Origin: a virus
Length of the DNA stretch: 15,755 nucleotides
IMG/VR virus record: IMGVR_UViG_3300045988_131611
Reading direction: 5' to 3' (one strand)
Shown: positions 1-15,755 of the stretch, in pieces
Position numbering within the stretch: the stretch's first letter is position 1
Layout of the letters: each line of letters begins with the position of its first letter
Made by a program: the position numbers and the translations under genes
The notes under the pieces: model-generated
What the model saw: the letters and a program-made list of their open reading frames with translations, nothing else
Databases searched by the model: none
Told to the model about the DNA's origin: nothing

Positions 1-55
1 ACGTTGACATAAAATAAAACGATATTTAGAACATTTCCCCATTCACTTTGCGCGG

Positions 56-85
56 TTGACTAAAAATAGTGAACGCGGATAAAAT
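56..85 (+). promoter_or_regulatory. Candidate second left-end promoter (TTGACT-18 nt-TAAAAT), absent from the right ITR copy
   Basis: TTGACT at 56-61, 18-nt spacer, TAAAAT at 80-85. The -35 lies in the only strongly diverged ITR patch; the right copy reads CAAACG there. Confidence 0.35.
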
Positions 86-101
86 ATTTTAGAAAATACG
101 C

Positions 102-130
102 TTGACATTTTAAGACGAGTGTGCTATTAT
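102..130 (+). promoter_or_regulatory. Left ITR early promoter, consensus -35 plus extended -10
   Basis: TTGACA 102-107, 17-nt spacer, TGcTATTAT with TG at 122-123 and the -10 hexamer at 125-130. It is followed by ATAAT and points at the gene starting at 178. Confidence 0.8.
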
Positions 131-177
131 ATAATTACAGAAAGGGAAGAACCCTTAGATAAAAGGAGGAAAAGAAA

Positions 178-495
178 ATGACTAAAAAGTACAGAGTGAA
201 TGAGAGTGAAATTTTTAATCTGCAGTCTATGTATGACCGTTTAAAGTGCATTGAAATTGATATGCGGGATGACGCGGTACATGCCTACACAGACAAGCAA
301 TGGAATGAAATAGAAGATAGGATAATTGAGGTTGAAGAACTTATGGAAAAAGCCTATTGCGTAGGCGCGTTAGTAGACTGGGTGACATTAAAGAGAATCA
401 GAGAGATTAAAGCAGAACGGCAGCTTATTAGATATAACAATTGTATGCAGCAGGGAGCAACAGAGAAAGAAGCAGCAATGGCATTTTTATTGTAA
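178..495 (+). CDS. Early protein, 105 aa, unknown function
   Basis: ORF with AAAAGGAGG RBS (161-169) 8 nt upstream of the ATG, directly downstream of the ITR promoter. Helical, charged composition. No family recognised. Confidence 0.75.
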   Translation: MTKKYRVNESEIFNLQSMYDRLKCIEIDMRDDAVHAYTDKQWNEIEDRIIEVEELMEKAYCVGALVDWVTLKRIREIKAERQLIRYNNCMQQGATEKEAAMAFLL

Positions 496-512
496 AAGGA
501 GGTCAAGAAAAA

Positions 513-761
513 ATGTCCGAAACTATAGCACAGCGTATTGAACAGGAACAGATTATTGACATGAAATATGAGCATCTGGCGGCTGAATATGCTAGAATCT
601 GCGGTACAAGGAAATATATGTTAGTGATAAAACAGCTTGATTCCGAGATGTATAAAAGTGATAAAGTTCATATCAATAATGAGCTTGAAAGATTAGATAT
701 AGAAAGTGAAAGAATATTAACTGAACTTGAAAACCTAGTAAATGAAAAAGAACCCGTTTAG
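513..761 (+). CDS. Early protein, 82 aa, unknown function (coiled-coil-like)
   Basis: The ATG at 513 is preceded by AAAGGAGG (495-502). The listed start at 441 overlaps the upstream gene and has no RBS. The ORF ends inside the terminator hairpin. Confidence 0.7.
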   Translation: MSETIAQRIEQEQIIDMKYEHLAAEYARICGTRKYMLVIKQLDSEMYKSDKVHINNELERLDIESERILTELENLVNEKEPV

Positions 762-775
762 AACGGGTTCTTTAA
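745..775. terminator. Bidirectional intrinsic terminator between the convergent left early unit and the long minus-strand operon
   Basis: Stem GAACCCGT (750-757) / ACGGGTTC (763-770), loop TTAGA, A-run upstream and T-run downstream. It reads as a hairpin plus U-tract on both strands. Confidence 0.8.
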
Positions 776-784
776 TTTTATACC

Positions 785-1555
785 TTACTCTTTCCTCAGC
801 ATCCCTTTCGTAAGCAGCACCACCAATTCCGTATTCTGCTCTGCCGTCCCGGTATACTCTGTAATTCCATTCGCCCTTGCAATTTCTTTCCGGTGCGCAA
901 AACTGCTATCAATTCCGACCGTGTTTAACGCAGCTACCAGACCAATACCCGGATAGAATTTTTCCGATTTTATCTTTTTTGACATGTCAAAATTTTTACC
1001 TCCGATTTTACCGCTGTTAGTATACTGCCACAACGTAGCATTTTTACTATACTCGTCCTCTTTTGTAGTATATCTTGCATACCACAAAGGAAAATCTTTT
1101 AGTTTGCTGTGTAGCAAGTGGTTTATTAGATAATCCCGGTTAGCATAGTACCCGCATTTATACCCGTAAAAGTTCATTGTCTGACAAAAGTTAGTAATTA
1201 GCGTGCTTCTGGAAATGCGCGTCAATGTGTTCTTGTCATATCTAGACAGCTTTTCTTCTGTATCATATTCGAAGTCACACCAAACTCCCAGATTGATTTT
1301 ATCTTTGTATGATCTGATTGTCTGTTCAAACTTGACACAATTTGCAGCAATCGTTCTACCAGAATGAATATACACAAACCAGTAAAATCCCAGATCAAGC
1401 CCGCGTTTTATAACCCCATTCGTAAAGTATTTCATCCGTTCATCTTCGGTCACTCCGCTGCCCGCGCGAACAATTACACCAGTAATACCCGACTTGACAA
1501 CTGCGTCCCAGTCTACCGGATAATTCCACTTTGATACGTCAATGATTTTACTCAT
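785..1555 (-). CDS. Endolysin, GH25 muramidase domain plus a short C-terminal putative cell-wall-binding module
   Basis: N-terminus IIDVSKWNYPVDWDAVVKSGITGVIVRAG and an acidic DFEYD segment are GH25-like. C-terminal roughly 50 aa (GIDSSFAHRKEIARANGITEYTGTAEQN) is a separate module. Last gene of a holin-containing lysis cassette. Confidence 0.85.
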   Translation of the reverse strand: MSKIIDVSKWNYPVDWDAVVKSGITGVIVRAGSGVTEDERMKYFTNGVIKRGLDLGFYWFVYIHSGRTIAANCVKFEQTIRSYKDKINLGVWCDFEYDTEEKLSRYDKNTLTRISRSTLITNFCQTMNFYGYKCGYYANRDYLINHLLHSKLKDFPLWYARYTTKEDEYSKNATLWQYTNSGKIGGKNFDMSKKIKSEKFYPGIGLVAALNTVGIDSSFAHRKEIARANGITEYTGTAEQNTELVVLLTKGMLRKE

Positions 1556-1763
1556 GTTCTGATCTCCTTTCTAGTTCTTTTACATGCTGCGACAACCCAG
1601 ACACTTCTGTTTCAATCCGAATTAACCGATCGTCCATGCTTGCATGTTTATCCATGCGTTTCTCTAAAGCGTCTAAGCGGTATTTAATTAGCGAATTATT
1701 CATCACAGCTACCAGCAACGCGGATGCCAAACTGCAGGTAGCTGTAACAATAGATTCTATCAT
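1548..1763 (-). CDS. 71-aa lysis-cassette protein: N-terminal transmembrane helix plus coiled coil
   Basis: Hydrophobic residues about 3-22, then a heptad-like charged helix (RLDALEKRMDK...HVKELERR). ATGA overlap with the holin stop and an 8-nt ATGAGTAA overlap with the endolysin start imply translational coupling. Confidence 0.65.
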   Translation of the reverse strand: MIESIVTATCSLASALLVAVMNNSLIKYRLDALEKRMDKHASMDDRLIRIETEVSGLSQHVKELERRSEHE

Positions 1764-2023
1764 TTTTCCACCGCCTTTTTTATCTGCTTCGGAATCTGAT
1801 TGATGCCAACTGCAGCCAAACCGCTTGAAATACCAATAGCGAAAATGTCAATGGCATTTCCTCCGCCGATATTGAACCCGTACACAATCGAAATAATAGA
1901 ACATAAAATGCCAATAAATACAGACACCAATGGAATATATTCATCGCACACCAGCTTTGCACTTTTGACAACCTCTGAAATACCATAACAGATAACTGTA
2001 ATTGCAATATAAGGCTCAACCAT
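1760..2023 (-). CDS. Holin (87 aa from the ATG at 2023)
   Basis: Multiple hydrophobic segments and a charged C-terminus (KQIKKAVEK). GISSGLAAVGINQIPKQ resembles small Gram-positive phage holins. AGGAGG lies 8 nt upstream of the ATG at 2023; the listed GTG start at 2032 falls inside the RBS. Confidence 0.65.
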   Translation of the reverse strand: MVEPYIAITVICYGISEVVKSAKLVCDEYIPLVSVFIGILCSIISIVYGFNIGGGNAIDIFAIGISSGLAAVGINQIPKQIKKAVEK

Positions 2024-2024
2024 T

Positions 2025-2801
2025 TTAACCACCTCCTTGTACTAATTTATATACGCTTTCGGATAATTTTATATACGTGCTACCATTTACACGCAAGAAA
2101 ACACCGTCCTGCAGTATTTGTGTTTTGTTAAAGAAAATAGGGTTTATAAGTCTGTCCCCGTTTGACGGTAAAAACATATTATTTATTTTAAATAAGTAAA
2201 GTGGTGCTTCCGACACGATCGGCGGGTCAGGGTCAGGCGGTTCAGGTGGTTCGGGTGGCGGGTCAGGTTTCGGGTCGATATCCTCCCCATTATACAGCTT
2301 CTGCCAAAAATACCATGCCATTTCTCCCCTGTTTGGCTGGTTCAGGTCTTTTGGTCGTTCATAATTTCTTAAAAACATGTTTGCCAGCATTTTCACCATA
2401 GCTTCTACGCTTTCTCCGGTTGTCCATTGTGTAAATTCGTAAAAGCTGTACGGATATTTAGAAGTAGCAATCCATTGCTTTTTGTTTGCAACCTCCCACT
2501 TTATACGCTCTAACTGTCCTGTCCCGCTGTCGTGTGGGTATCCGTTTTCATCCATCCAGCTAAAAAGTTTTGTTGCTGGTGTCCACTGCACAAGTCCAAA
2601 ACCTAAGTCGGTATTCCCGGCATCTAGATTTTGCCATATTCCCGGGTTGACATGTGATTCCGCCCACATATTTCCCAACATTGCGCAGACTGCATAAGAT
2701 GTCCATCTGCCTTGTACGGTGCTGCCCGCAAGGTAGTCGTAAACCTCGCGGGCATTTTCCAACGCTTCGGCAAGCGTTATCCACCTGTTGCCACTTATCA
2801 T
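2025..2801 (-). CDS. Tail-associated peptidoglycan hydrolase, phi29 gp13 N-terminal (phage tail lysozyme)-like, with Pro-rich linker and small C-terminal domain
   Basis: Motif MLGNMWAESHVNPGIWQN (catalytic-Glu context of the phage tail lysozyme family). Linker DPKPDPPPEPPEPPDPDPP. Sits after the appendage genes as in phi29. ATGA overlap with the upstream gene. Confidence 0.7.
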   Translation of the reverse strand: MISGNRWITLAEALENAREVYDYLAGSTVQGRWTSYAVCAMLGNMWAESHVNPGIWQNLDAGNTDLGFGLVQWTPATKLFSWMDENGYPHDSGTGQLERIKWEVANKKQWIATSKYPYSFYEFTQWTTGESVEAMVKMLANMFLRNYERPKDLNQPNRGEMAWYFWQKLYNGEDIDPKPDPPPEPPEPPDPDPPIVSEAPLYLFKINNMFLPSNGDRLINPIFFNKTQILQDGVFLRVNGSTYIKLSESVYKLVQGGG

Positions 2802-3553
2802 GCGTTTATACGATAAGTAAGAGCCACCTCAGCCGTACTCCATCCCTCACTAGTATTAGGACGACCAATACCAATACGCCCATCTTTGAAGTCACTCTCC
2901 GTATAAGTTACTGGCGCAGAACCCTGTTGAATTGTAGCGCTTCTTGTTAAACCTTGCACATTGACAGTTCCAAAAACGTTTGACACAACCATTTTTATCA
3001 AAGTCATGTTATCAAGATTTTTATAAAAAAAAGTGGCTGTTCCGGTGTTTGGTCTAGATGCTCCGACCGCTATAACTTTAAACACAACCTCCGTAGATGG
3101 TTTTGGCGCATTTTCCAGTGCCGTCACTCTCCCGTCAAGATTCTGCAGTGTCGTTTTATTTCCATCCGCAGTCTGCTTTGCTTTCGTAGCGTTCGCACTG
3201 GCTGCATTCGCAGCGTTTACAACATCGGTTGCTGTCGTCTGTGCGGCTGTTGCTTTCTGCTCTGCTCTGTTAGCTGCTTCCTGTGCTGCCGTAACGTCTC
3301 CGGCCATGCCGTCCGCAGTTTCTTTCAGCTGTGCGACCTGTTTTTTGGTATCCTCGTGAACGGCTTTCAGATCTGCCTGCGCGCTCTTTACAGTTTCCAC
3401 ATCGTTAACTGCTTCATCCGCTGTCTGACTAGCAGTAAATAAAGCGCCGTCAATGATCTTCATGTCGTTGTTATAGTCTCCCAGAAAAGTAGGCTTGTCT
3501 GTGCCGATAAACTGGGATAATTTAAAATTGGCTGTTTTGTTTGTGCTACTCAT
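2798..3553 (-). CDS. Fibre-like protein, 251 aa: conserved fibre N-terminus, Ala/Gln-rich coiled coil, beta-rich C-terminal head
   Basis: N-terminus NFKLSQFIGTDKP...DYNNDMKIIDGAL, then a long coiled-coil-like AQ/T-rich segment. C-terminal roughly 100 aa are rich in beta-formers. RBS AGGAGG upstream. Confidence 0.6.
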   Translation of the reverse strand: MSSTNKTANFKLSQFIGTDKPTFLGDYNNDMKIIDGALFTASQTADEAVNDVETVKSAQADLKAVHEDTKKQVAQLKETADGMAGDVTAAQEAANRAEQKATAAQTTATDVVNAANAASANATKAKQTADGNKTTLQNLDGRVTALENAPKPSTEVVFKVIAVGASRPNTGTATFFYKNLDNMTLIKMVVSNVFGTVNVQGLTRSATIQQGSAPVTYTESDFKDGRIGIGRPNTSEGWSTAEVALTYRINA

Positions 3554-3566: not shown

Positions 3567-4013
3567 TTATGCAGTCTCTAAAGCTGCAATCCTTTCTTGC
3601 AAACTTGTTATCTTTCCAGCGTTCGCGCTGTTTGCATCGTTCGCAATTTTAACCGCTTCCTGCGCTGCTGTTACCAGCTCTATTGAATTGCTAATATCAG
3701 TAACCGCTTTTGCTGCTTTTGTTTCTGCACCGCTGGCAACCTGCGTCAAAACATTCAGTGCGGGCATCACAGCCAGTAATTTACCCTGCGATAATGTAAT
3801 TGTGTTTTTTAATGTTTCAATTTCTTCGGTCATGTTTGTGATCTCTGTCTGGACTGTTGCCATTTCGTTTTTTACGCCGGATGTTTTACCTTTCAGTGAT
3901 TGCAAGGCTGCATCAATCTTTTTGTTGTTTTCGTTCCAATCTCCCATGATGTCAACAGCATCTTTTTTCTGGTACATTCCGAAATTAAAAAACCTTGTGT
4001 GACGTGTAAACAT
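3567..4013 (-). CDS. Fibre-like protein, 148 aa: paralogous N-terminus and coiled coil, no C-terminal head
   Basis: Shares with the 251-aa neighbour the NF...D...N(E/N)N.K(I)ID.AL N-terminal motif, and VTAAQEA...AN.A.SANA...L..R..ALE.A in the coil. AGGAGG 8 nt upstream of the ATG. Confidence 0.6.
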   Translation of the reverse strand: MFTRHTRFFNFGMYQKKDAVDIMGDWNENNKKIDAALQSLKGKTSGVKNEMATVQTEITNMTEEIETLKNTITLSQGKLLAVMPALNVLTQVASGAETKAAKAVTDISNSIELVTAAQEAVKIANDANSANAGKITSLQERIAALETA

Positions 4014-5348
4014 TTATTGTACCTCCTTTTTAACTGGTAACTCCTTTAGTAAAGCGTTTTCGCAACATAAAACACCCCTAATGGATGCAAAAGCAAAATT
4101 ATCAAGAGAGGATGCTTTTCCGGGTGCGCCTAAATTGTAAACATTAAAACGGAACTGAATAACTGTTGGCAATCCGTTTTTATATTTATTTTCTGATTGA
4201 TAATAATAAATACCATTACTGCTGTTTGTCTCTATGCACAGCCACGCGTGCCACTCATTATCATTAGTGATTTCCACGTTGAATCCAATTATTGCCGTCC
4301 ACGTATAGGGGTATGTTTCAGGTGTTGGCTTTTTTGGTGGTGTTATACTCGTTACACATTTTTTAATAAACCCATGCGCACTTCTTCCAACTGTCCGAAC
4401 CCCTAAACCGTTCCCCACGTTATAGGTATCGTAAAAAGTGGCGTTTTCCGTGTCCCACCACAAGGCATCCTTTTTTTTTGTTTTGATTGCCTGACAAGTT
4501 TCTGACATAACAGAATCAAATTCCTGCGCGGTCAAGTGTAGTTCTGCGTCCACCTGCATAACCTCGTCAAGTGCTCTGGCATGGGAAAGTAAATCACCGC
4601 TTCCCGGACTGTTCACGCTTGCATCAAAAACACCGTACATTTTGTAATAGCTTTCAGCATCGAACGCACCCGCACGGATATGCAATTTTTTAAAATCTTC
4701 GCAGTTCTTGTCAAAAGCTGAAAACCAAGCATCAAATTGTCCGCAAGTAATTGCCCGCACTCTTAAAACATCGAACACATTATTAACAGTGTTTCCAACT
4801 CTGTCTCTGTATCCGGTTGTCGGGTCAAAAATCCGAAAGCCATCTTCGTTTACTTCGTCAATTTCCAGACGCAGCTTTTCCAGCTGCTCTTCTACCCACT
4901 CTTTCAGACGCTCAACTGCAAAGTCTGTGTACTGTTCCAGATAGGCTTTTGTCTCGTCAATTTTACCATTCAGCTGCGCAACATCTTTTTCATGCGTAAG
5001 TTTGACATTGTCCACATACAGCCGTAACTCTGTTATTAAATCTTCCAGCCGCTTTACGTCTTTGGTATGTTCTGTCCAGTAATAAACGTCTTGAGTGTCA
5101 ATGTAGACGCGTAAGGTTTCAACCGTCTGTTCGAGAGTTTTCAAAAGCTCCGCTTTTAACTCTGCCACTTTTGTGTCTGTATAGTTCTGGTAATTCGTCT
5201 CTAAGTCAGTCAAAAACTGAATGATCTGATTGATATTGTATGCAATCTTCTGCATCATTTCCAACTGGCTAATTGACGCATCCCACTCAGACGGCAAGGA
5301 TAAATAGGCATTATTAAAACATAGCTTTTCCGGTAACTTTTTATCCAC
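4014..5348 (-). CDS. Tail appendage / candidate receptor-binding protein, 444 aa (GTG start)
   Basis: Occupies the phi29 gp12 position, after the lower collar. N-terminal roughly 170 aa are coiled-coil-like, followed by a globular C-terminal half. GTG start with AGGAGG 8 nt upstream. Confidence 0.55.
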   Translation of the reverse strand: MDKKLPEKLCFNNAYLSLPSEWDASISQLEMMQKIAYNINQIIQFLTDLETNYQNYTDTKVAELKAELLKTLEQTVETLRVYIDTQDVYYWTEHTKDVKRLEDLITELRLYVDNVKLTHEKDVAQLNGKIDETKAYLEQYTDFAVERLKEWVEEQLEKLRLEIDEVNEDGFRIFDPTTGYRDRVGNTVNNVFDVLRVRAITCGQFDAWFSAFDKNCEDFKKLHIRAGAFDAESYYKMYGVFDASVNSPGSGDLLSHARALDEVMQVDAELHLTAQEFDSVMSETCQAIKTKKKDALWWDTENATFYDTYNVGNGLGVRTVGRSAHGFIKKCVTSITPPKKPTPETYPYTWTAIIGFNVEITNDNEWHAWLCIETNSSNGIYYYQSENKYKNGLPTVIQFRFNVYNLGAPGKASSLDNFAFASIRGVLCCENALLKELPVKKEVQ

Positions 5349-8702: not shown

Positions 8703-8722
8703 CTTTTAAACCTCCTTTTTTG

Positions 8723-8751: not shown

Positions 8752-8760
8752 ATAAAATCT

Positions 8761-10316: not shown

Positions 10317-10443
10317 TTTTTCCTTTCTCCCGTGTTCGGCTAAGTTAATAAGTAAGGGAAAACACGCGCACATCCCTATACGCCATACAGACGAGCCGTT
10401 TCACACGGGGGGTTCTTGTCTGTACTGTAAGTTCTCCCTCTAT
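10317..10443 (-). ncRNA. Structured roughly 127-nt 5' leader of the structural operon; candidate regulatory RNA or pRNA-like RNA (hypothesis)
   Basis: Non-coding stretch in an otherwise tightly packed genome, downstream of a consensus promoter. Contains an imperfect hairpin at 10386-10424 (7-bp UACAGAC/GUCUGUA outer stem, inner CCGU/ACGG), stem GUAUAGGGA/UCCCUUAC, and CGUGUU (10366-10361) complementary to AACACG (10336-10331) next to the RBS. Confidence 0.4.
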
Positions 10444-10449
10444 GGTTTT

Positions 10450-10478
10450 AGTATAGCTTCCTTTTGTACCGATGTCAA
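10450..10478 (-). promoter_or_regulatory. Promoter of the structural (late) operon
   Basis: Minus strand TTGACA (10478-10473), 17-nt spacer, TATACT (10455-10450). The -35 hexamer contains the ATPase TGA stop codon. Confidence 0.7.
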
Positions 10479-11524
10479 GCCCTAATTCCCAAAAAATCCA
10501 TTCCAATATTTTTGCATTCCTGTGATTCAAAACGAAAATTCCCGGCATTAAATTGCTTTCTACACATCGACACTTGCGCGGATATTGCGCCAGTTAAACA
10601 TGTGTTTTCATCGTGATCTTTTGTGGAAATTGCAAAAAGCCGATGAAAATTTCTGTCTGCTTTTAACGATATATAATATCTTCCGTTTTGCAACATCCAT
10701 AAGCCATAAAAAATACCATTATGTTTTATTGTCATTAAATACCTTGCTCCCGCAAGATTCTGTTTTGCAATAAATTGCACATTATCCAACAAAAAGATAT
10801 TGTCAATACTATAGTTAAAATAGGACGCATCGGAAAACGCACGATAAAACCCGCTTTGCTGTTTTTCCTCTGCTACGTATTTATTTCTGTAGACCTCCAT
10901 CACCCAGCCATGCCCTCGCATAAAGTGGATTCCAGATTGCCAGCGTTTATGAATCCCTAAAGCGACAAAATACGGATTCAATAACGAAACCATATTACTA
11001 ACTAAAAAATAGGTTAGTTTTCGCGTTAATTGTTCGAAACCTCTACCGACTGCGTCATTGATTGCAAAAAACTTCGTGATCTCATCCGCGCAATAGTCGC
11101 CCGTTTCACTTTGGAACTCGTCTAGAAAAATATTGTCTGCATCGTTAAAAAACGTAGATATTCTCTTAACTTTATCGACCATACTCAGCGCAATCACATA
11201 TCCACAAGATATTTCAAAATCTTCCGTTTTTATAAAAACTTCTGCGAATTTACCAGAACCGCTGGATACTGAATATAAATCGGTATTCGGAAATTTATTT
11301 TTTACATCTGCCCAAAAAGCGGGAATATAGCTGTTCAATTCATCTTTTTTTCGAACTAGACAGATAAACTTTTTACTTTTATGCAAAAATTCATTGATTA
11401 AATATTCTTTTACGGCAAAAGATTTTCCGCCACCTTTTGAGCCAGTTATAATAAAAATGTCGGGTGTATTCCCGTCTAAGTCTTTCGTTTTTAAAATGTT
11501 GTCTAGCCTATAATGCTTTTCCAT
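10475..11524 (-). CDS. DNA packaging (encapsidation) ATPase, phi29 gp16-like
   Basis: Walker A GSKGGGKS, Walker B-like IFLDEF, and LVSNMVSLLNPYF matching the recalled gp16 LSNAVSVVNPYF. 349 aa, similar in size to gp16. Confidence 0.9.
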   Translation of the reverse strand: MEKHYRLDNILKTKDLDGNTPDIFIITGSKGGGKSFAVKEYLINEFLHKSKKFICLVRKKDELNSYIPAFWADVKNKFPNTDLYSVSSGSGKFAEVFIKTEDFEISCGYVIALSMVDKVKRISTFFNDADNIFLDEFQSETGDYCADEITKFFAINDAVGRGFEQLTRKLTYFLVSNMVSLLNPYFVALGIHKRWQSGIHFMRGHGWVMEVYRNKYVAEEKQQSGFYRAFSDASYFNYSIDNIFLLDNVQFIAKQNLAGARYLMTIKHNGIFYGLWMLQNGRYYISLKADRNFHRLFAISTKDHDENTCLTGAISAQVSMCRKQFNAGNFRFESQECKNIGMDFLGIRA

Positions 11525-11541
11525 GCTACCCCTTTCTCAAT

Positions 11542-11571
11542 AAAAAAGAGGAACAATTGTTCCTCTTTTTT
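11542..11571. terminator. Perfectly palindromic bidirectional intrinsic terminator between the replication module and the ATPase gene
   Basis: 30-nt perfect palindrome AAAAAAGAGGAACAATTGTTCCTCTTTTTT: GC-containing stem flanked by an A6 and a T6 tract. It lies 18 nt upstream of the ATPase ATG. Confidence 0.8.
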
Positions 11572-11582
11572 ATGCTGCCCTG

Positions 11583-11918
11583 TCAAACAAGAACAAGCGT
11601 TAAAAATTCATTTTTATTGTTGGACTTCCGGTATTCCGCCCGCAGTGTAAGCGGATTGTCTGCTGTCGGCGCTCCGACAAACTGTTCAAGCGTCTGAATA
11701 CAATCTGCGACTGTTGGTGAGAGTGTTGTAATACAACGTCCGTCCTGCAGCACGAACCCGGTGCACACGCACTCGTCTCCGGTTGCTTTTCTAGTAGTTT
11801 CCCACTGTGCAACTCCAACTACCACCATATCTTCACCAACGTGATCGGTTAAGCCCTCGCTATTCTGCGAAAGGCTGTACAGCTGCTTTTTGTCGGTTAC
11901 TGTGTTGATTAAACTCAT
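11583..11918 (-). CDS. 111-aa protein of unknown function (candidate DNA-binding/replication accessory protein)
   Basis: ORF with AGGAG RBS. Second gene behind the strong promoter at 12308-12280. Four Cys in DECVCTG...GRC...ADC. No family recognised. Confidence 0.6.
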   Translation of the reverse strand: MSLINTVTDKKQLYSLSQNSEGLTDHVGEDMVVVGVAQWETTRKATGDECVCTGFVLQDGRCITTLSPTVADCIQTLEQFVGAPTADNPLTLRAEYRKSNNKNEFLTLVLV

Positions 11919-11932: not shown

Positions 11933-12232
11933 TTATTCTGCTTTTTCTGCTTCGTCAACTGTTACGACTTCGGAATACTTCAGAAAATCTTCAACGCTTA
12001 AACGTCTCAGCTCTTCCCTGTATTCCGTGTTCACACAAAACAACCCTTTTGCATCCGGATATGCCTTGTTGATCTCCCTTGTAATTGCCGTATTAGAGCT
12101 TACTCTAACCGGAACAATGATATCAGGAAAGTCAGTTACCTGCCCATCCGCAAACTGTGCCACCTTGATAACGGTTGTAGTCACAGTTCTTGTAAAAAAC
12201 CGTGTCCTTGCGTCTCCGTCTCCTTTTCTCAT
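11933..12232 (-). CDS. 99-aa protein of unknown function (candidate DNA-binding/replication accessory protein)
   Basis: ORF with AAAGGAG RBS, first gene behind the promoter at 12308-12280. No family recognised. Confidence 0.6.
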   Translation of the reverse strand: MRKGDGDARTRFFTRTVTTTVIKVAQFADGQVTDFPDIIVPVRVSSNTAITREINKAYPDAKGLFCVNTEYREELRRLSVEDFLKYSEVVTVDEAEKAE

Positions 12233-12279: not shown

Positions 12280-12308
12280 ATAATAGCACAAACCTTTTAA
12301 AGTGTCAA
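12280..12308 (-). promoter_or_regulatory. Third copy of the ITR-type early promoter (consensus -35, extended -10)
   Basis: Minus strand TTGACA (12308-12303), 17 nt, TGcTATTAT (-10 at 12285-12280), followed by TATAAT. The core GTGCTATTAT is identical to the ITR promoters. The -35 contains the polymerase TGA stop. Confidence 0.75.
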
Positions 12309-14155
12309 CATCTTTTTGCGCGTAAAGTATAAAAATCTTCCACTAACACCATTCCGCCACTGATGTATTTTGGTTTTAATTTTCCGCCCACTTTCAAGCC
12401 AATCTTAAAATCCGTTATTGGGTGACTTGCCAAAAATAATTTTTTTGACTTTTCCGGCATCCCGGCACACTTTATCTCCCAGTGTCCTGTCACTTTTTTC
12501 CCGTCCTCTTTTTGCACAAACTCTGCATATGTCTTTTGCCTTATAAATATAGCACTGCTCCAATCGCTTTCTCTCTTCCAATGCAATAGCTCTGTAGCGT
12601 GTTCTTTTATCATTTTTACTGGCTGCCCATCGTCCAGCATATGTATAGAGTCCGTGTCACTGTAAACAAAATTTTGATAATTAGCTTGTGCGTGCGTTAT
12701 GGTAAAATATCGCGCGTATGCCGTCACAGCTGCGCCCGCTGCAATGTATAGTGTGTCTTTTTCATGTTCCGGGTGCAATTCGAATCCTATAGAATCTGTT
12801 TCAGGGTCGATAAATGGTTCACGGTAAGAGCTGTTATCGTTAATGGCAAGCCGTCCATATAAGTTGTTTAGGAATAATTTTGCTTCTGTTCGCTCTCCCT
12901 TGTCTTTGGTAGTCATTTTAATTTTCATGTAGTGATCTATATAAGTGTCAAACAAACCTATCGCGCCATGAAAATAACAACCGTCTAAAATCTCTAAGTC
13001 ATACACATCGTAATGTTCTAATAAAAGTAAATAGTCTGTCATAAAAAGCGTTAGTTCCGGCCTTGCTTCCTCTTTTTGCCCCTCTTTATTTGTAAAATAT
13101 CTATAATATTTCCCGCGATAATAAATATCAGAAGTTTCCAGCCATTGAGTAGAATTATACTTATAGTCTCCTTTAATCTGCACAGTCGGCAAAAACCCAT
13201 CTTTTAGCTTAAAACGACAGCGCAATCTAACATAAAACGGATACACGCGCGCTTCTAAGCATTTATAAGGGATTGCTTTTTCAAAAAATATCGGTTTCCC
13301 TGTTGGGTAATAGTTCCCACTTTTACTGTGCATAACACTAGGATATAGAGAGTTAACATCAAAAGTCATGCCATTCTGTGTAATATGTTTTCTTTGTTTG
13401 TATTTGTAATAGCAATAACCTCCCTTATACGCTTTTCGAATATATTGATCTACGTTATCGCTTCCAAGCTCATATTTTATCAATGCTATCTCTTTTAAAT
13501 TCGGAAAAGCTGCTTTGAAGTCCATAGCATCAAATTTATTTTTGAATTCGTCCATACAGCATGAGCCTATGGTTAATTTATCATGTCCACTTTTTATCAT
13601 AACTTCCAGCGCTTCCTTTAGTACATAAATATCGTTAATAATATAAGCATATTCTTCCGGTGTTATTTCACAATTTGCGTGTCGCATTCCTATATACTCC
13701 ATTTCCAATTTCCTATGCTTCGTATTAAATGCAGAGCCAATTTGATCTAATGTCATAGGCATCAGCTTAACACTATCCCTAAACTCGATCACTGTATCAA
13801 ACTTTGGTTTGACTGTAACGGTATACCATTTATTTGTATCTGATATTAAAGCTTTAAACTCTTTTGCGTTCATGCCTTTATTACGTGCATTATTCCATGT
13901 ATAGCCGTTCTTTAAAAGCCAATACACAATAAATGCTCCATCAAAACGCAGGTTATGAAAATAACATAGAACGTTTTTATTCAAATTAAAAATATCGTTC
14001 AAAAAATCTTCTATGTTACCGCGAACGTGCGGTCGCTCTGTAAATAATTCTATCCATGCGGCGCTCCAAACTTCTGTCGATGTCTGACCGGGATATACGG
14101 TTGTCTCAAAGTCTGCCGCTATTATAACGGGTTTTTTCGCTGATTTTTTTGACAT
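12305..14155 (-). CDS. Protein-primed family-B DNA polymerase (phi29 gp2-like), 616 aa from the ATG at 14155
   Basis: Exo I AADFETT, Exo II YFHNLRFDGAF, Exo III YIINDIYVL, motif A DVNSLYPS, motif B KLFLNNLYGRL, motif C YSDTDSIH, and KxY in RQKTYAE. GAGAGG RBS 7 nt upstream of the ATG at 14155; the listed start at 14170 is a TTG inside the palindrome. Confidence 0.95.
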   Translation of the reverse strand: MSKKSAKKPVIIAADFETTVYPGQTSTEVWSAAWIELFTERPHVRGNIEDFLNDIFNLNKNVLCYFHNLRFDGAFIVYWLLKNGYTWNNARNKGMNAKEFKALISDTNKWYTVTVKPKFDTVIEFRDSVKLMPMTLDQIGSAFNTKHRKLEMEYIGMRHANCEITPEEYAYIINDIYVLKEALEVMIKSGHDKLTIGSCCMDEFKNKFDAMDFKAAFPNLKEIALIKYELGSDNVDQYIRKAYKGGYCYYKYKQRKHITQNGMTFDVNSLYPSVMHSKSGNYYPTGKPIFFEKAIPYKCLEARVYPFYVRLRCRFKLKDGFLPTVQIKGDYKYNSTQWLETSDIYYRGKYYRYFTNKEGQKEEARPELTLFMTDYLLLLEHYDVYDLEILDGCYFHGAIGLFDTYIDHYMKIKMTTKDKGERTEAKLFLNNLYGRLAINDNSSYREPFIDPETDSIGFELHPEHEKDTLYIAAGAAVTAYARYFTITHAQANYQNFVYSDTDSIHMLDDGQPVKMIKEHATELLHWKRESDWSSAIFIRQKTYAEFVQKEDGKKVTGHWEIKCAGMPEKSKKLFLASHPITDFKIGLKVGGKLKPKYISGGMVLVEDFYTLRAKRC

Positions 14156-14169
14156 TGTGAAACCTCTCA

Positions 14170-14191
14170 AAATGTTTCACGTGAAACATTT
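14170..14191. promoter_or_regulatory. 22-bp perfect palindrome between the terminal-protein and polymerase genes
   Basis: AAATGTTTCACGTGAAACATTT, centred on CACGTG. It overlaps the TAA stop of the upstream gene and ends 1 nt from the polymerase RBS. Confidence 0.5.
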
Positions 14192-14816
14192 AATATTCAC
14201 CCCAACCGTTTTCATAGTCGAATGAATCTAAAAATTCTTTTTGCTGCGCGCGGGAAAGTCCTAGATTATCAGACAGTTCGGATAAAAACTCGGGTACGAT
14301 TGGCTGCCCTCCATTTTTTTCTGCGTCATAACTTTCGTGAATAGTCAGCCACGGTACAGCTTCCAACGCTTCTGCTGTTGCTTCTTTTCCATTCTTCCTT
14401 AAGCTATTTTCTAGCCATTGCCTACACATGCGTTCTGCTACCGGAAAATATGTGTATGTTGTGTTTATAAAATTTTCTATAATAATATCCGCACTAGAGG
14501 GATAATCTACTACGCGTCCTCTTTTCTTTTTTGCTTTTCGTCTTTTTGACTTGTATTCTCCCCGACCTATTTTCTTTTTTGCTTTTCGCCTTTTTGACTT
14601 ATAACCGCTATCAGTTATTAAAGATTCAGAAGATTTTTGTATAACGTCCGGTGTTATTTTCTTCAACCGCTGAACATCTGATTTTGTAGGTTGCTGTTTT
14701 ACTTTTGGCATGTCAATTGATATTGCATAACCTTGTGCGAGCAATTTATTCACTTGCTTTTCTATTCGTTTTAGTTCTTGCGCGTATACTTTCGCATACC
14801 TATTTTTTCTCGTCAT
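14190..14816 (-). CDS. Putative terminal protein (replication primer), 208 aa
   Basis: Immediately upstream of, and co-oriented with, the protein-primed polymerase, as in phi29. Basic N-terminal half (RYAKVYAQELKRIEKQVNKL; duplicated YKSKRRKAKKK) and an acidic C-terminal part ending FLDSFDYENGWGEY. This recalls the TP layout (basic DNA-binding N-terminus, acidic priming domain). No direct homology verified. Confidence 0.6.
   Translation of the reverse strand: MTRKNRYAKVYAQELKRIEKQVNKLLAQGYAISIDMPKVKQQPTKSDVQRLKKITPDVIQKSSESLITDSGYKSKRRKAKKKIGRGEYKSKRRKAKKKRGRVVDYPSSADIIIENFINTTYTYFPVAERMCRQWLENSLRKNGKEATAEALEAVPWLTIHESYDAEKNGGQPIVPEFLSELSDNLGLSRAQQKEFLDSFDYENGWGEY
14522..14603. repeat. Tandem 48-nt-period duplication inside the putative terminal-protein gene
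   Basis: 34-nt units at 14522-14555 and 14570-14603 differ at 2 positions. They encode YKSKRRKAKKKIGRGE / YKSKRRKAKKKRGRVV. Confidence 0.9.
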
Positions 14817-14847
14817 ATGAAAAAACCTCCTTTTATAATGTAGTTCT

Positions 14848-14876
14848 ATTATAACATATTTTTATAAAAAATACAA
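14848..14876 (-). promoter_or_regulatory. Promoter of the terminal protein-polymerase unit (extended -10)
   Basis: Minus strand TTGTAT (14876-14871), 17 nt, TGtTATAAT (-10 at 14853-14848), about 30 nt upstream of the terminal-protein ATG. Confidence 0.6.
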
Positions 14877-14879
14877 TAA

Positions 14880-14903
14880 GAAAAGCCGTTTGCACGGCTT
14901 TTC
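14880..14903 (-). terminator. Intrinsic terminator after the 122-aa early gene
   Basis: Minus strand GAAAAGCCG-TGCAAA-CGGCTTTTC followed by TTATTGTATTTTTT. Confidence 0.65.
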
Positions 14904-14907
14904 TTAT

Positions 14908-15276
14908 TTACTTATAAATGCTATAAAACGCGTCCAACATGTTGTTTGTTTTCGCATATTCGTGCTGTGTCTGTTTTGCTTCCTCCGGTGTTTTTCCGGT
15001 TCGCAACTCTGTGTAAAACAATTCTACTAATAGCGACACTCTATCACTTAGTTTTCTGGAACGTTCCCATTCTCTATAGTTCCATAATATTACTGCTTTT
15101 GTATAACTGCTTATATCAATCTTAACGCCTGTCTTAAATAACCGAACTATATTTGTAAGATCGTAACCATTTATGTAGGGAACACTTACTGTGTCACATC
15201 CAGATACCATTGGTATTATTTCATAGTTCGTTATACCGTTTTTACGCAGTTTCTTTATTATGTTTTGTATTGTCAT
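14908..15276 (-). CDS. Early protein, 122 aa from the ATG at 15276, unknown function
   Basis: GGAGG about 10 nt upstream of the ATG at 15276. This ATG forms an ATGA overlap with the stop of the upstream 26-aa mini-ORF. The alternative start at 15294 has only a weak RBS. Confidence 0.65.
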   Translation of the reverse strand: MTIQNIIKKLRKNGITNYEIIPMVSGCDTVSVPYINGYDLTNIVRLFKTGVKIDISSYTKAVILWNYREWERSRKLSDRVSLLVELFYTELRTGKTPEEAKQTQHEYAKTNNMLDAFYSIYK

Positions 15277-15353
15277 TTCTTCTTGTCCTCCCATGTCAGA
15301 TATCCTGCGAATAGGCTAATTCCTATTATAACTACCACCAATATTTCTTCCAT
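15273..15353 (-). CDS. Unlisted 26-aa single-pass membrane mini-protein MEEILVVVIIGISLFAGYLTWEDKKK
   Basis: AAGGAGGG RBS (15369-15362) 8 nt upstream of the ATG at 15353. Acidic N-terminus, 17-18 hydrophobic residues, KKK C-terminus. Its TGA stop overlaps the next ATG (ATGA). Below the ORF-track length cutoff. Confidence 0.55.
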   Translation of the reverse strand: MEEILVVVIIGISLFAGYLTWEDKKK

Positions 15354-15375
15354 TTTTCTTGCCCTCCTTATAAAT

Positions 15376-15401
15376 GAAAAAAAGCCTATTTTATGTAGGC
15401 T
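15376..15401 (-). terminator. Weak intrinsic terminator/attenuator overlapping the stop codon of the first right-end gene
   Basis: Minus strand AGCCTA-CATAAAA-TAGGCT followed by T7. The TAA stop (15393-15391) sits in the loop. Confidence 0.55.
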
Positions 15402-15591
15402 CTTCATTGATTATATCCTCTAATAGACCTAACAATACTCCAATGCGCTCTTCTAATTTCTCAAGCTGCTTTTCAATTTCCTCTTTATTGTTTTTGTATA
15501 CCTCTGCGTCAAACCATTTTAACACTCTAATATACTCTGCTGATGATTTAACATTTGCCAACTCATTTACTAGGTATTCGTACTTTTTCAT
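15391..15591 (-). CDS. Early protein, 66 aa from the ATG at 15591, unknown function
   Basis: AAAGGAGG RBS before the ATG at 15591, with the same leader as the left-end gene. The listed start at 15636 lies upstream of the predicted transcription start, inside the promoter. Helical, charged composition. Confidence 0.7.
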   Translation of the reverse strand: MKKYEYLVNELANVKSSAEYIRVLKWFDAEVYKNNKEEIEKQLEKLEERIGVLLGLLEDIINEEPT

Positions 15592-15611
15592 TTTCTTTTC
15601 CTCCTTTATTT

Positions 15612-15755
15612 CCTTTCTGTAATTATATAATAGCACACTCGTCTTAAAATGTCAAGCGTATTTTTGAAATATTTTATACGCGTTCACTAATTTCCGTTTG
15701 CGCCGCAAAATGAATGGGGAAATGTTCTAAATATCGTTTTATTTTATGTCAACGT
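15612..15755. repeat. Right inverted terminal repeat (ITR-R)
   Basis: Reverse complement aligns to 1-145. The terminal 45 nt and the promoter-proximal 53 nt are identical to the left end. Confidence 0.95.
15627..15655 (-). promoter_or_regulatory. Right ITR early promoter, mirror copy of 102-130
   Basis: Minus strand TTGACA (15655-15650), 17 nt, TGcTATTAT (-10 at 15632-15627). Sequence identical to the left copy. Confidence 0.8.

What the first reader, a model, noticed from the sequence alone, without database searches (positions are those of the whole stretch)
1..15755. Complete 15.8-kb protein-primed podophage genome: phi29-type core in a rearranged, almost single-strand layout
The window begins and ends exactly with inverted terminal repeats. 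It contains a full replication, packaging, head, tail and lysis gene set, with recognisable gp2, gp8, gp9, gp10 and gp16 homologues.

It is smaller than phi29 (about 19 kb) and differs from it in three ways:
- all but two genes are on one strand
- the packaging ATPase sits between the replication and scaffold genes instead of at the end of the late operon
- the ITR is about 145 bp, versus a few bp in phi29

At least nine proteins have no family I can recognise (105, 82, 66, 26, 122, 99, 111, 71 and 148 aa). This looks like a distinct small-podophage lineage, not a close phi29 relative.
Basis: partly seen in the sequence, partly recalled or inferred. Interest (0 to 1): 0.7.

Follow-up and report, generated by a model that had tools for sequence, protein, structure and literature searches.

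The report
Gut phi29-like phage with compact pRNA
This is an essentially complete genome of a small, uncultivated phi29-type phage that is already common in human-gut sequence databases; the one unreported part is a compact packaging-RNA-like gene next to its DNA-packaging ATPase, a kind of RNA that reviews describe as known only from Bacillus phages.

Summary
The window is a near-complete linear genome with imperfect ~150-nt inverted terminal repeats. It carries a phi29-type gene set: protein-primed PolB, gp5-like SSB, p6-like DNA-binding protein, gp16 ATPase, gp8, gp9, gp10, gp11, gp13-like lysozyme, holin and GH25 lysin. All but two genes are on one strand. Relatives show that the true ends carry three more bases (CCC).

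No deposited phage is similar at nucleotide level. However, the lineage is not new to databases. One protein is 100% identical to an NCBI entry mislabelled "Bacteroides sp. CAG:1076". Fifteen IMG/VR contigs share 84-97.5% nucleotide identity, and more than 100 further contigs exist. MT835904.1 has the same gene order.

Each "difference from phi29" has a precedent:
- Cp-1 has a 236-bp ITR and a one-strand layout.
- Guelinviridae, Rountreeviridae, CS229P and HM2 place the ATPase beside the replication genes.

The added result is an ~87-nt three-way-junction RNA at 10354-10440 (- strand), between the ATPase and scaffold genes. It has pRNA topology, covarying complementary loops, and positional counterparts after the ATPase gene in every related clade examined. 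Rfam's pRNA model misses all of them.

Verdict: an ordinary new member of a known kind, with a moderately interesting pRNA variant.

The parts
1..151 (.). Left inverted terminal repeat. The first ~45 nt are invariant between the two ends and among relatives (candidate replication origin). The true end is probably 3 nt (CCC) further out.
15606..15755 (.). Right inverted terminal repeat. It is imperfect: the patch matching left positions 46-66 differs, and the same right-end variant is seen in L011.
102..130 (+). Early promoter inside the left ITR (TTGACA-17-TATTAT with TG extension). It drives g105 and g82.
15627..15655 (-). Identical early promoter inside the right ITR. It drives g66 and downstream genes.
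178..495 (+). 105-aa early accessory protein of unknown function. It is present in only 2 of 15 genus-level relatives.
513..761 (+). 82-aa early accessory protein of unknown function (coiled-coil-like). It is present in 9 of 15 relatives.
747..773 (.). Bidirectional intrinsic terminator between the convergent + and - strand genes.
785..1555 (-). Endolysin: GH25 muramidase plus a C-terminal DUF3597-like (putative wall-binding) domain.
1548..1763 (-). 71-aa membrane/coiled-coil protein (phrog_1863; weak XhlA-like match). Probably a lysis accessory protein.
1760..2023 (-). Holin (Phage_holin_5_2). The ATG at 2023 has an AGGAGG RBS.
2025..2801 (-). Tail-associated lysozyme. The N-terminal domain is homologous to phi29 gp13 (44% identity).
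2798..3553 (-). 251-aa tail-fibre-like protein: coiled coil with a variable C-terminus.
3567..4013 (-). 148-aa coiled-coil, tail-fibre-associated protein.
4014..5348 (-). 444-aa appendage or receptor-binding candidate. It sits in the position of phi29 gp12 but has no detectable homology to it.
5365..6054 (-). Lower collar / adaptor (gp11 homologue).
6047..7015 (-). Portal / upper collar connector (gp10 homologue). The ATG at 7015 has an AGGAGG RBS.
7032..8702 (-). Tail knob protein (gp9 homologue), with a TTG start.
8761..10047 (-). Major capsid protein (Phi29_MCP) with a C-terminal extension.
10059..10316 (-). 85-aa acidic helical protein. It is assigned as scaffold (gp7 analogue) by position and size only. 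The real start is at 10316, not at the ORF's upstream ATG (10373).
10354..10440 (-). Candidate prohead/packaging RNA (pRNA), ~87 nt. Helix A is 10440-10431 paired with 10363-10354. The C/E hairpin is 10425-10385, with a 5' internal loop at 10414-10409. The D hairpin is 10383-10366, with the loop around 10376-10373.
10450..10478 (-). Promoter (TTGACA-17-TATACT; TATAAT in relatives). It overlaps the ATPase stop codon. The transcript would start a few nt before helix A and run through the candidate pRNA into the scaffold/capsid operon.
10475..11524 (-). DNA packaging ATPase. It is a full-length gp16 homologue (profile positions 21-324 of 331).
11540..11573 (.). Perfect palindrome with flanking A/T runs. 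Probably a terminator between the replication genes and the ATPase.
11583..11918 (-). Single-stranded DNA-binding protein (phi29 gp5 family, PF17427; 29.3 bits against a cut-off of 25).
11933..12232 (-). dsDNA-binding protein of the phi29 p6 type (phrog_6370, 7e-8).
12280..12308 (-). Third copy of the ITR-type early promoter, upstream of the DBP-SSB genes.
   Evidence: (I5)
12305..14155 (-). Protein-primed family-B DNA polymerase (gp2 homologue). The ORF extends to a TTG at 14170.
14190..14816 (-). Terminal-protein candidate (208 aa). It is assigned by position upstream of Pol, a basic N-terminus, conservation in all related clades and an invariant Tyr163. It contains a 16-aa basic duplication that is absent from the 192-aa variants.
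14875..14908 (-). Strong intrinsic terminator (15-bp stem) after the 122-aa gene.
14908..15276 (-). 122-aa early protein of unknown function. It is present in 11 of 15 relatives and shows a third-codon-position substitution excess.
15273..15353 (-). 26-aa hydrophobic peptide ORF (MEEILVVVIIGISLFAGYLTWEDKKK). It is aligned in the relatives.
15391..15591 (-). 66-aa early accessory protein of unknown function. It is present in 4 of 15 relatives and is followed by a terminator-like hairpin at 15379-15405.

Best explanation
The window is the genome, lacking only about 3 terminal bases per end, of an uncultivated lytic phi29-type podophage. It belongs to a discrete, unclassified genus that is common in human-gut metagenomes.

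Replication (inferred from the gene set and the phi29 paradigm). The DNA is linear, with a terminal protein on each 5' end. A protein-primed PolB starts at the invariant ~45-nt ends. The CCC terminal reiteration would allow sliding-back initiation. A p6-like DNA-binding protein and a gp5-like SSB assist.

Transcription (sequence signals, not shown experimentally). Each ITR carries the same sigma-70-type promoter pointing inwards. These promoters drive variable small early genes. A third copy of the promoter drives the DBP and SSB genes.

Packaging (inferred). A gp16-type ATPase docks on the gp10 portal through a ring of small RNAs. I propose that this RNA is the ~87-nt three-way-junction element encoded directly downstream of the ATPase gene. 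It is transcribed from its own consensus promoter and continues into the scaffold/capsid mRNA.

Virion and lysis. The phi29-type MCP, tail knob, collars, tail lysozyme, holin and GH25 lysin complete the particle and the lysis system.

Host. It is unknown. The expression signals and the cultured relatives point to Bacillota (Clostridia).
For: Genome identity:
- Family hits.
- ITRs.
- Ends shared with at least 8 independent assemblies, plus adapter junctions.
- Identical gene order in MT835904.1 and L033.
- 15 IMG/VR contigs at 84-97.5% nucleotide identity.
- No integrase or lysogeny hit in any scan.

A discrete lineage:
- ATPase identity drops from at least 90% to at most 38%.
- MCP best representatives are 53, 45 and 38%, then at most 37%, among 1622 clusters.

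Candidate pRNA in the window and its genus:
- The 96-nt core folds at -35.3 kcal/mol, z = -4.15, and the MFE structure equals the centroid.
- The consensus fold of 14 genus sequences is a three-way junction. 98.5% of cells are paired, 5 pairs change on both sides, and the slid controls collapse to 35-57%.
- The internal loop of hairpin 1 pairs with the apical loop of hairpin 2. Two of the 5 pairs switch compensatorily, G:C to A:U and A:U to U:A.
- phi29's own pRNA gives the same topology with the same method.
- A topology descriptor picks this locus in 15 of the 20 qualifying segments out of 23,478. It also recovers the true pRNA in phi29.
- The stretch 10317-10373 shows no coding substitution pattern, and the ATG at 10373 is absent in half of the relatives.

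Candidate pRNA in other clades:
- An element of the same topology lies directly after the ATPase gene in every related clade examined (IMG/VR loci L030-L094), in MT835904.1, and in the cultured phages CS229P2 and HM2.
- Their loop pairs use different sequences: AGGC/GCCU, UAGCA/UGCUA, GACA/UGUC, UUCC/GGAA, CUGUA/UACAG, GGGA/UCCC and GUAGUCU/AGACUAC.
- Their helix A shows 7 of 8 pairs with compensatory changes.

Host-type signals:
- A Shine-Dalgarno-like motif precedes 19 of 21 genes, most often AGGAGG.
- Promoters are of the TTGACA/TATAAT type.
- The nearest cultured relatives infect Clostridium symbiosum and Clostridium innocuum.
Against: Terminal protein. No significant similarity links the 208-aa protein to known terminal proteins: hhalign E = 0.12 against phi29 and 0.029 against Cp-1, and there is no PDB hit. 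The AF2 model was too poor to use, with pLDDT 53.

Candidate pRNA:
- Rfam RF00044 gives no hit even at E <= 10.
- A covariance model built from the window's genus does not find the elements of other clades.
- MAFFT cannot align them. Homology therefore rests on position and architecture only.
- In the window itself the loop complementarity is only GGG/CCC, or 5 positions with one A.C mismatch. On its own this is not significant.
- Helix A is only 10 bp, against roughly 20-26 pairs counted for phi29.
- There is no dedicated terminator, so the RNA would have to be released from, or act as, an mRNA leader.
- The covariation inside the genus amounts to two sequence classes, that is, few independent events.
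- The descriptor was designed after seeing the candidates.

No experiment and no expression data support any step.
Confidence: 0.8

Rival explanations
1. The structured element at 10354-10440 is not a packaging RNA. It is a cis-acting leader of the late scaffold/capsid mRNA, for example a transcription attenuator, an mRNA-stabilising structure or a binding site for a regulator.
For: - It lies between a promoter and the scaffold RBS with no terminator of its own.
- The D hairpin followed by GUGUUUU was flagged as terminator-like.
- Helix A is short, and Rfam's pRNA model does not match.
- The window's own loop complementarity is weak.
Against: - In most related clades the element of the same topology is a stand-alone unit. 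It starts right after the ATPase stop codon and has its own terminator. In CS229P2 it sits on the opposite strand from the late genes, so there it is not a leader.
- Complementarity between the two loops is maintained with at least seven different sequences, and by compensatory changes inside the genus. This is what a pRNA ring needs and is not expected of an attenuator.
- The topology equals that of phi29 pRNA.
- The phage has a gp16-type ATPase. From established knowledge of phi29, this ATPase docks on the prohead through pRNA.
Confidence: 0.2
2. The phage is simply a member of an existing ICTV family (Salasmaviridae, Madridviridae or Guelinviridae), so it is not a distinct lineage at family or subfamily level.
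For: - It shares 7 core proteins with phi29, 5 with Cp-1 and 4 with phiCPV4.
- Cp-1 has the same strand layout and a long ITR.
- The family hits are the phi29 families.
Against: - There is no nucleotide similarity to any of 50,697 phage records.
- Identities to these families are only 23-35% for Pol, MCP, portal and ATPase.
- The nearest relatives (MT835904.1, CS229P) are themselves unclassified above class level in their records.
- The 2024 survey lists many such gut clusters as unclassified (PMC11476376).
Confidence: 0.2
3. The host is a Bacteroides species, as the NCBI source name 'Bacteroides sp. CAG:1076' suggests.
For: The 100% identical TP-candidate protein carries that organism name in NCBI. 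Some related contigs are binned in Bacteroidaceae or Bacteroides MAGs.
Against: - The bins that hold related contigs are taxonomically scattered: Bacteroidaceae, Faecalimonas, Melainabacteria, Oscillospiraceae, Acutalibacteraceae and Gastranaerophilales. The contigs are whole-phage-sized, which points to mis-binning.
- Strong AGGAGG Shine-Dalgarno motifs and TTGACA/TATAAT promoters are typical of Bacillota and not of Bacteroidota. This rests on established knowledge.
- The holin plus GH25 lysis cassette fits the same picture, and the cultured relatives infect Clostridia.
Confidence: 0.05
4. The terminal repeats and the 'complete genome' are an assembly artefact, either a chimeric or fold-back assembly or an incomplete contig.
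For: - The ITR is imperfect.
- Relatives show very different apparent ITR lengths, from 148 to at least 577 nt. Part of this variation could be caused by the assembler.
Against: - At least eight independent assemblies end within 0-6 nt of the same terminal sequence.
- Two assemblies carry sequencing adapter fused to it.
- L011 reproduces the same left/right ITR difference.
- The gene set is complete and syntenic with relatives.
Confidence: 0.03

Closest known systems
IMG/VR uncultivated viral genomes L004-L018 (for example IMGVR_UViG_3300045988_078258 and _085158), plus the NCBI 'Bacteroides sp. CAG:1076' and 'MAG TPA Caudoviricetes sp.' entries
   Same: They belong to the same species or genus: 84-97.5% nucleotide identity over most of the genome, MCP 92-100%, the same termini and the same candidate pRNA.
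   Different: The early genes next to the ITRs differ (g105 is in 2 of 15 relatives, g66 in 4 of 15). The apparent ITR length also differs, from 148 to at least 577 nt. None of these records is annotated, classified or linked to a host.
MT835904.1 (Bacteriophage sp., human faeces, Mexico, 15,640 bp) and IMG/VR L033, L061 and L069
   Same: MT835904.1 has the same gene order across the 14 of 21 proteins that are detectably homologous (L033: 12). MT835904.1, L033, L061 and L069 all have a promoter-pRNA-like-RBS-scaffold arrangement directly after the ATPase gene.
   Different: Amino-acid identity is only 24-57% and there is almost no nucleotide similarity. Their pRNA-like element has a longer helix A (about 12-17 bp) and the loop polarity is reversed: GGGA in the internal loop and UCCC in the apical loop.
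Clostridium phages CS229P1-3 (host Clostridium symbiosum) and HM2
   Same: These are the nearest cultured relatives. Against CS229P2, Pol is 46% and the ATPase 34% identical; against HM2, the ATPase is 32%. They have small genomes (16-17.5 kb), a central ATPase and a pRNA-like element right after the ATPase gene.
   Different: In CS229P the ATPase and the RNA are on the opposite strand from the other genes, and the RNA has its own terminator. CS229P2 shares 7 proteins and HM2 5.
Streptococcus phage Cp-1 (Cepunavirus; Madridviridae or Salasmaviridae, depending on the source)
   Same: It has a long ITR (236 bp) and nearly all genes on one strand, in the order TP-Pol...scaffold-MCP-connector...lysis. 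A few small convergent genes sit at the far end.
   Different: Five detectable homologues have 23-29% identity. The ATPase lies just before the holin-lysin genes, not next to the replication genes.
Bacillus phage phi29 (Salasmaviridae, Picovirinae)
   Same: The following are shared: protein-primed PolB, SSB gp5, the p6-type DBP, gp16 ATPase, gp8, gp9, gp10, gp11 and the gp13 N-terminal domain. The candidate pRNA has the same topology as phi29's pRNA.
   Different: - Identities are 26-44%.
- phi29 has a 6-bp ITR, divergent early and late operons, and gene 16 at the end of the late operon.
- Its pRNA gene lies at the left end, far from gene 16, and has a much longer helix A.
- No p4, gp12 or gp8.5 homologues were detected here.
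Rfam RF00044 (Phage_pRNA, 3WJ core of phi29 pRNA)
   Same: Helix A, a three-way junction, a C/E hairpin with a 5' internal loop, a D hairpin, and complementary loops.
   Different: The model gives no score, even at E <= 10. The candidate core is about 87 nt, against a 118-position model. The gene position also differs.

Membership tests
phi29-like protein-primed podophages (the informal supergroup of Salasmaviridae, Madridviridae, Guelinviridae, Rountreeviridae and unclassified relatives) | Protein-primed family-B DNA polymerase (PF03175) | tested here: met
   E = 8.9e-48 and 163.8 bits against a cut-off of 25.8. phrog_1907 scores 2.9e-167.
phi29-like protein-primed podophages | Linear genome with inverted terminal repeats | tested here: met
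   An imperfect ITR of about 150 nt. The ends are shared by independent assemblies, with adapter junctions.
phi29-like protein-primed podophages | Terminal protein gene, with the protein covalently linked to the 5' ends | tested here: inconclusive
   A 208-aa ORF lies directly upstream of Pol. It is conserved in 9 clades and has an invariant Tyr163. No significant similarity to the phi29 or Cp-1 TP or to the PDB was found, and the AF2 model was unusable. Covalent linkage cannot be tested here.
phi29-like protein-primed podophages | Small gp16-type packaging ATPase without a nuclease domain | tested here: met
   Podovirus_Gp16 scores 1.3e-32 and covers profile positions 21-324 of 331.
phi29-like protein-primed podophages | phi29-type MCP, connector, tail knob and lower collar | tested here: met
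   PF25622 at 3.8e-82, PF05352 at 5.1e-40, PF20934 together with PF16838, and phrog_3225 at 1.6e-57.
phi29-like protein-primed podophages | Prohead/packaging RNA | tested here: inconclusive
   The architecture, the loop-loop covariation and the conserved position after the ATPase gene are met. No sequence or covariance-model link to known pRNAs was found. Function is not testable here.
Rfam RF00044 Phage_pRNA | A score at or above the family's gathering threshold (100 bits) | tested here: not met
   There is no hit at E <= 10 in the window or in 8 relatives. As a positive control, phi29 scores 145.4 bits.
Genus Salasvirus / subfamily Picovirinae (Salasmaviridae) | Nucleotide-level relatedness to phi29-group genomes. 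Genus demarcation is about 70% identity over the genome (ICTV convention, from memory). | tested here: not met
   There is no megablast hit to any phage record. Protein identities are 26-44%.
Guelinviridae (Clostridium perfringens phages) | Shared proteome with the exemplar phiCPV4 | tested here: not met
   Only 4 of 21 proteins are detectable, at 25-30%. The ATPase gives no match at E <= 1e-3.
Rountreeviridae (Staphylococcus picoviruses) | Shared proteome with the exemplar 44AHJD | tested here: not met
   Only 1 of 21 proteins is detectable, the gp9 homologue at 22%.
Any ICTV family (formal placement) | Monophyly in a proteome or hallmark-gene tree with the exemplar genomes | not testable with these tools
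   No VIRIDIC, vConTACT or VICTOR was available. Only pairwise tblastn was run.

The most novel reading that the evidence does not exclude
The ~87-nt three-way-junction RNA is a functional, unusually compact pRNA made as the 5' leader of the late operon. More broadly, pRNAs are not a Bacillus-phage peculiarity. They would be a conserved component of gp16-type packaging motors in the clostridial and gut phi29-like lineages sampled here and, as a candidate, in Cp-1. In these phages the RNA gene is physically linked to the ATPase gene, and the kissing-loop sequences have diversified.
Probability: 0.6. Interest if true: 0.6.

Novelty: new member of a known kind. Interest (0 to 1): 0.4.

Why it matters
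As a genome it adds little. It is one more member of the large, already catalogued diversity of small gut phi29-like phages, and its sequence family is already public, although unannotated and partly mislabelled as Bacteroides.

The pRNA-like gene is the useful part.
- The reviews I could read (PMC11476376 and PMC5066667) describe pRNA as known only from phi29 and related Bacillus phages. Rfam's model sees only those.
- If the elements found here are real pRNAs, they give a natural series of compact three-way-junction RNAs with at least seven different kissing-loop sequences and helix A lengths ranging from 10 bp to more than 20 bp.
- Such a series is relevant to how the ATPase docks on the prohead and to RNA nanotechnology built on pRNA.
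- They also give annotators a simple rule: look directly downstream of the gp16 gene.

Tried and rejected
1. Megablast of the whole genome against INPHARED phages gave no hit.

2. Rfam scans at E <= 10 of the window and 8 relatives gave no pRNA hit. The positive control on phi29 worked.

3. Covariance model R1, built from the window's genus, was searched in divergent clades.
- The only hit was weak (E = 0.88). It did fall at the right place in L037.
- With filters off it found nothing at the expected places.
- The model is too narrow: its effective number of sequences is 0.95.

4. Cross-clade MAFFT alignments of the RNA elements recover only helix A. The window's genus cannot be aligned with its sister clade. 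I therefore built no multi-clade model.

5. Terminal-protein tests were all non-significant: hhalign against the phi29 and Cp-1 TPs, and a PDB profile search.
- The allowed shallow alignment gave pLDDT 53, so I did not run a fold search.

6. Host inference failed by three routes.
- Endolysin homologues lie only on phage-sized contigs.
- There is no close MCP relative in 185,579 species genomes.
- Distant ATPase relatives occur only in taxonomically scattered MAG bins.
- A CRISPR spacer search is not possible with these tools.

7. Two first attempts at sliding-window fold scans timed out and were redone in parallel.

8. I considered and rejected the ORF's upstream ATG (10373) as the scaffold start. 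It lies in the D loop, is absent in half of the relatives, and the segment shows no coding substitution pattern.

Full report
OBSERVATION

The window has imperfect inverted terminal repeats. Bases 1-95 pair with 15661-15755 at 87%, and 88-151 with 15606-15669 at 94%. A gapped alignment shows four parts: 45 identical terminal bases, a divergent patch at 46-66, an identical promoter block, and, after an 11-nt indel, an identical RBS-ATG block.

Only two genes (178-495 and 513-761) are on the + strand. All the others run on the - strand from 15591 down to 785.

One refinement concerns the ends. Six independent IMG/VR assemblies of close relatives start with CCC before ACGT(C/T)GACATAAAATAAAACG. 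In L015 and L007 an Illumina adapter tail is fused directly to CCCACGT. The physical ends are therefore most likely 5'-CCCACGT, and the window lacks three bases at each end. From established knowledge of phi29, Nf, GA-1 and PRD1, a terminal reiteration such as CCC is what sliding-back protein-primed initiation requires.

The left/right difference inside the ITR is reproduced in L011. It is therefore real and not a chimera.

GENE CONTENT

Pfam and PHROGs identify the following:
- protein-primed PolB (PF03175)
- gp16-type ATPase
- Phi29_MCP
- tail knob gp9
- connector gp10
- lower collar
- gp13-like tail lysozyme
- holin (PF16079)
- GH25 endolysin

- The 111-aa protein passes Pfam's cut-off for Phi29_Phage_SSB, at 29.3 bits against 25. 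An independent gene call on a Logan contig carries the same weak hit.
- The 99-aa protein matches the p6-type dsDNA-binding PHROG at 7e-8.

The 85-aa protein upstream of the capsid gene is called scaffold by position only.

The 208-aa ORF directly upstream of Pol is the terminal-protein candidate.
- Homologues occupy the same place in nine divergent clades. They share a basic N-terminus and an invariant tyrosine, Y163.
- Profile comparisons with the phi29 and Cp-1 terminal proteins and with the PDB are not significant.
- The structure model was too poor to use.
- The assignment is an inference.

The terminal small genes are accessory. g105 occurs in 2 of 15 relatives, g66 in 4 of 15 and g82 in 9 of 15. 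Core genes occur in all relatives and show a clear third-codon-position excess of substitutions.

REGULATORY SIGNALS (SEQUENCE ONLY)
- Each ITR carries the same TTGACA-17-TG-TATTAT promoter pointing inwards. A third copy lies at 12308-12280, upstream of the DBP and SSB genes.
- A consensus promoter at 10478-10450 overlaps the ATPase stop codon.
- Terminators lie at 747-773 (bidirectional), 11540-11573, 14875-14908 and 15379-15405.

RELATIVES

No phage record is similar at nucleotide level.

At protein level the nearest deposited records are:
- MT835904.1, an unannotated human-faecal contig of 15,640 bp, with Pol 53% and MCP 57%;
- the Clostridium symbiosum phages CS229P1-3, with Pol 46%.

MT835904.1 has the same gene order for 14 of 21 proteins.

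IMG/VR holds 15 contigs with MCP 92-100% identical to the window's. Their genome-wide nucleotide identity is 84-91%, and L004 reaches 97.5%.

The TP-candidate protein is 100% identical to an NCBI entry named 'Bacteroides sp. CAG:1076'. More than 120 clusters of at least 81% identity lie on 15-16.4 kb contigs. Some are deposited as 'MAG TPA Caudoviricetes sp.'.

The lineage is discrete.
- ATPase identity falls from at least 90% to at most 38%.
- Among 1622 capsid clusters at 50% identity, the best matches are 53, 45 and 38%.

A 2024 survey already catalogued 2115 phi29-related genomes in 30 capsid clusters. Many of these are 12-17 kb human-metagenome contigs (PMC11476376).

THE THREE 'DIFFERENCES FROM PHI29'

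Each has a precedent.
- Cp-1's record annotates a 236-bp ITR, ORFs 1-22 on one strand and three small convergent ORFs at the far end.
- phiCPV4 (Guelinviridae) has Pol followed by the ATPase.
- 44AHJD (Rountreeviridae) has the ATPase followed by Pol.
- CS229P, HM2, CI461P1 and others have a central ATPase.

Detectable homologues number 7 with phi29 (26-44% identity), 5 with Cp-1, 4 with phiCPV4 and 1 with 44AHJD.

THE CANDIDATE pRNA

phi29-type ATPases dock on the prohead through a ring of pRNA. This comes from established knowledge and from the reviews PMC5066667 and PMC11476376. Rfam found no pRNA in the window.

Structure in the window and its genus:
- The 158 nt between the ATPase stop (10475) and the well-supported scaffold start (10316) contain a promoter followed by a structured RNA.
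- The 96-nt core folds at -35.3 kcal/mol with z = -4.15.
- The fold is a three-way junction: a 10-bp helix A, a hairpin with a 5' internal loop and a small distal stem-loop, and a second hairpin.
- Fourteen genus-level sequences give the same consensus. 98.5% of cells are paired, five pairs change on both sides, and the slid controls fall to 35-57%.
- The internal loop of hairpin 1 is complementary to the apical loop of hairpin 2. Between the two sequence classes of the genus, two of the five pairs change compensatorily: GGGAU/AUCCC against GGAUU/AAUCC.
- The window's own copy has one A.C mismatch in this helix.

Counterparts in other clades:
- I found an element of the same topology directly after the ATPase gene in all 64 divergent IMG/VR loci with sequence beyond the ATPase stop. 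One further contig, L039, ends about 70 nt after the stop.
- The same element is present in MT835904.1, CS229P2 and HM2.
- In most clades it starts with GGTATC right after the stop codon, has a long helix A and its own terminator.
- Across clades, helix A shows compensatory changes in 7 of 8 pairs.
- The two loops are complementary over 4-7 bp, with at least seven different sequences.

Controls:
- phi29's own pRNA, folded the same way, has the same topology.
- A topology descriptor scanned over whole genomes picks the candidate locus in 15 of 20 qualifying segments of the window, and in 13 of 16 in L011.
- The same descriptor recovers the true pRNA in phi29 as the only locus with loop complementarity of at least 4 bp.

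Limits of the pRNA evidence:
- The descriptor was written after seeing the candidates.
- The covariation inside the genus reflects few independent events.
- Neither Rfam RF00044, nor a covariance model from the window's genus, nor MAFFT links the window's element to those of other clades.
- Homology therefore rests on position and architecture.
- The window's helix A is short, and the RNA has no terminator of its own.
- I found no paper that reports pRNAs in these gut or clostridial phages. From memory, a pRNA was predicted for Cp-1 in 1996, so 'outside Bacillus' is not wholly new.

HOST

The host is unknown.
- The 'Bacteroides' label is a bin name.
- Related contigs sit in MAG bins of scattered taxonomy.
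- No close relative exists in the species-representative genomes.
- Lysin homologues occur only on phage-sized contigs.
- Shine-Dalgarno-like motifs precede 19 of 21 genes, mostly AGGAGG. Together with sigma-70-type promoters and cultured relatives on Clostridia, this favours a Bacillota host. This is an inference.

VERDICT

The genome is an ordinary, already sampled, unclassified member of the phi29-like phages. None of its layout features is unprecedented.

What is worth carrying forward is the compact pRNA-like gene linked to the ATPase gene, and the evidence that such RNAs occur in every related gut and clostridial clade examined, where current models do not detect them.

Noticed in passing
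window 1 and 15755; L015, L007, L011, L017, L005 and L006 ends: Relatives extend three bases beyond the window's ends (CCC-ACGT...). In L015 and L007 an Illumina adapter tail is fused directly to CCCACGT. The physical termini are therefore 5'-CCCACGT, and CCC is a terminal reiteration suited to sliding-back initiation.
   Followed up: partly
L008, L015, L017, L018, L016 and L011 ends: The apparent ITR length varies widely inside one genus: about 148, 171, 343, 349, 358 and at least 577 nt. The longer versions duplicate the first early gene at both ends. This could be real end-homogenisation or an assembler artefact.
   Followed up: no
window 102-130, 15627-15655 and 12280-12308: There are three near-identical promoters with an extended -10 (TGCTATTAT). 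Two lie inside the ITRs and one lies upstream of the DBP-SSB genes. The shared block at the ends continues into an identical RBS-ATG (162-181 and 15588-15607) that drives two unrelated genes.
   Followed up: partly
L030-L094 (IMG/VR), L001 5370-5480, L002 ~5620-5760 (- strand), L108 ~6090-6200: pRNA-like three-way-junction elements lie directly downstream of the gp16-type ATPase gene in every related clade examined, including the cultured phages CS229P2 and HM2. Many begin with GGTATC and end with a terminator. Rfam RF00044 detects none of them.
   Followed up: partly
L096 (Cp-1) 4680-4811, - strand: The same descriptor flags one locus in Cp-1 with 6-bp loop complementarity (UGGUUA/UAACCA). 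It lies in the gap between orf7 and the scaffold gene, on the strand opposite to the late genes. It is a possible Cp-1 pRNA.
   Followed up: no
window 14190-14816 (protein residues ~72-103): The terminal-protein candidate contains a tandem 16-aa basic duplication (YKSKRRKAKKKIGRGE / YKSKRRKAKKKRGRVV). Many relatives are 192 aa instead of 208 aa, which is exactly one repeat shorter.
   Followed up: no
NCBI entry behind P0001: The identical protein is deposited as 'unknown [Bacteroides sp. CAG:1076]'. This looks like a phage genome mislabelled as a bacterial co-abundance bin. Related whole-phage contigs sit in MAGs of Bacteroidaceae, Melainabacteria, Oscillospiraceae and others.
   Followed up: partly
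window 8711-8753: A conserved GGGAACG...CGTTCCC hairpin with flanking A and T runs lies between the capsid and tail-knob genes. It may be a partial terminator that raises capsid mRNA relative to the downstream genes.
   Followed up: no
window 15273-15353, - strand: A 26-aa hydrophobic peptide ORF (MEEILVVVIIGISLFAGYLTWEDKKK) is aligned in the relatives. At this point some relatives carry 300-600-nt insertions that hold extra small genes.
   Followed up: no
window 785-1555: The endolysin has no match above 89% identity in the 5.8-billion-protein collection, although other proteins of this genome have 98-100% matches. A second lysin type, at about 51% identity, sits on otherwise similar 15-kb contigs. 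This suggests that the lysis cassette is exchanged within the genus.
   Followed up: no
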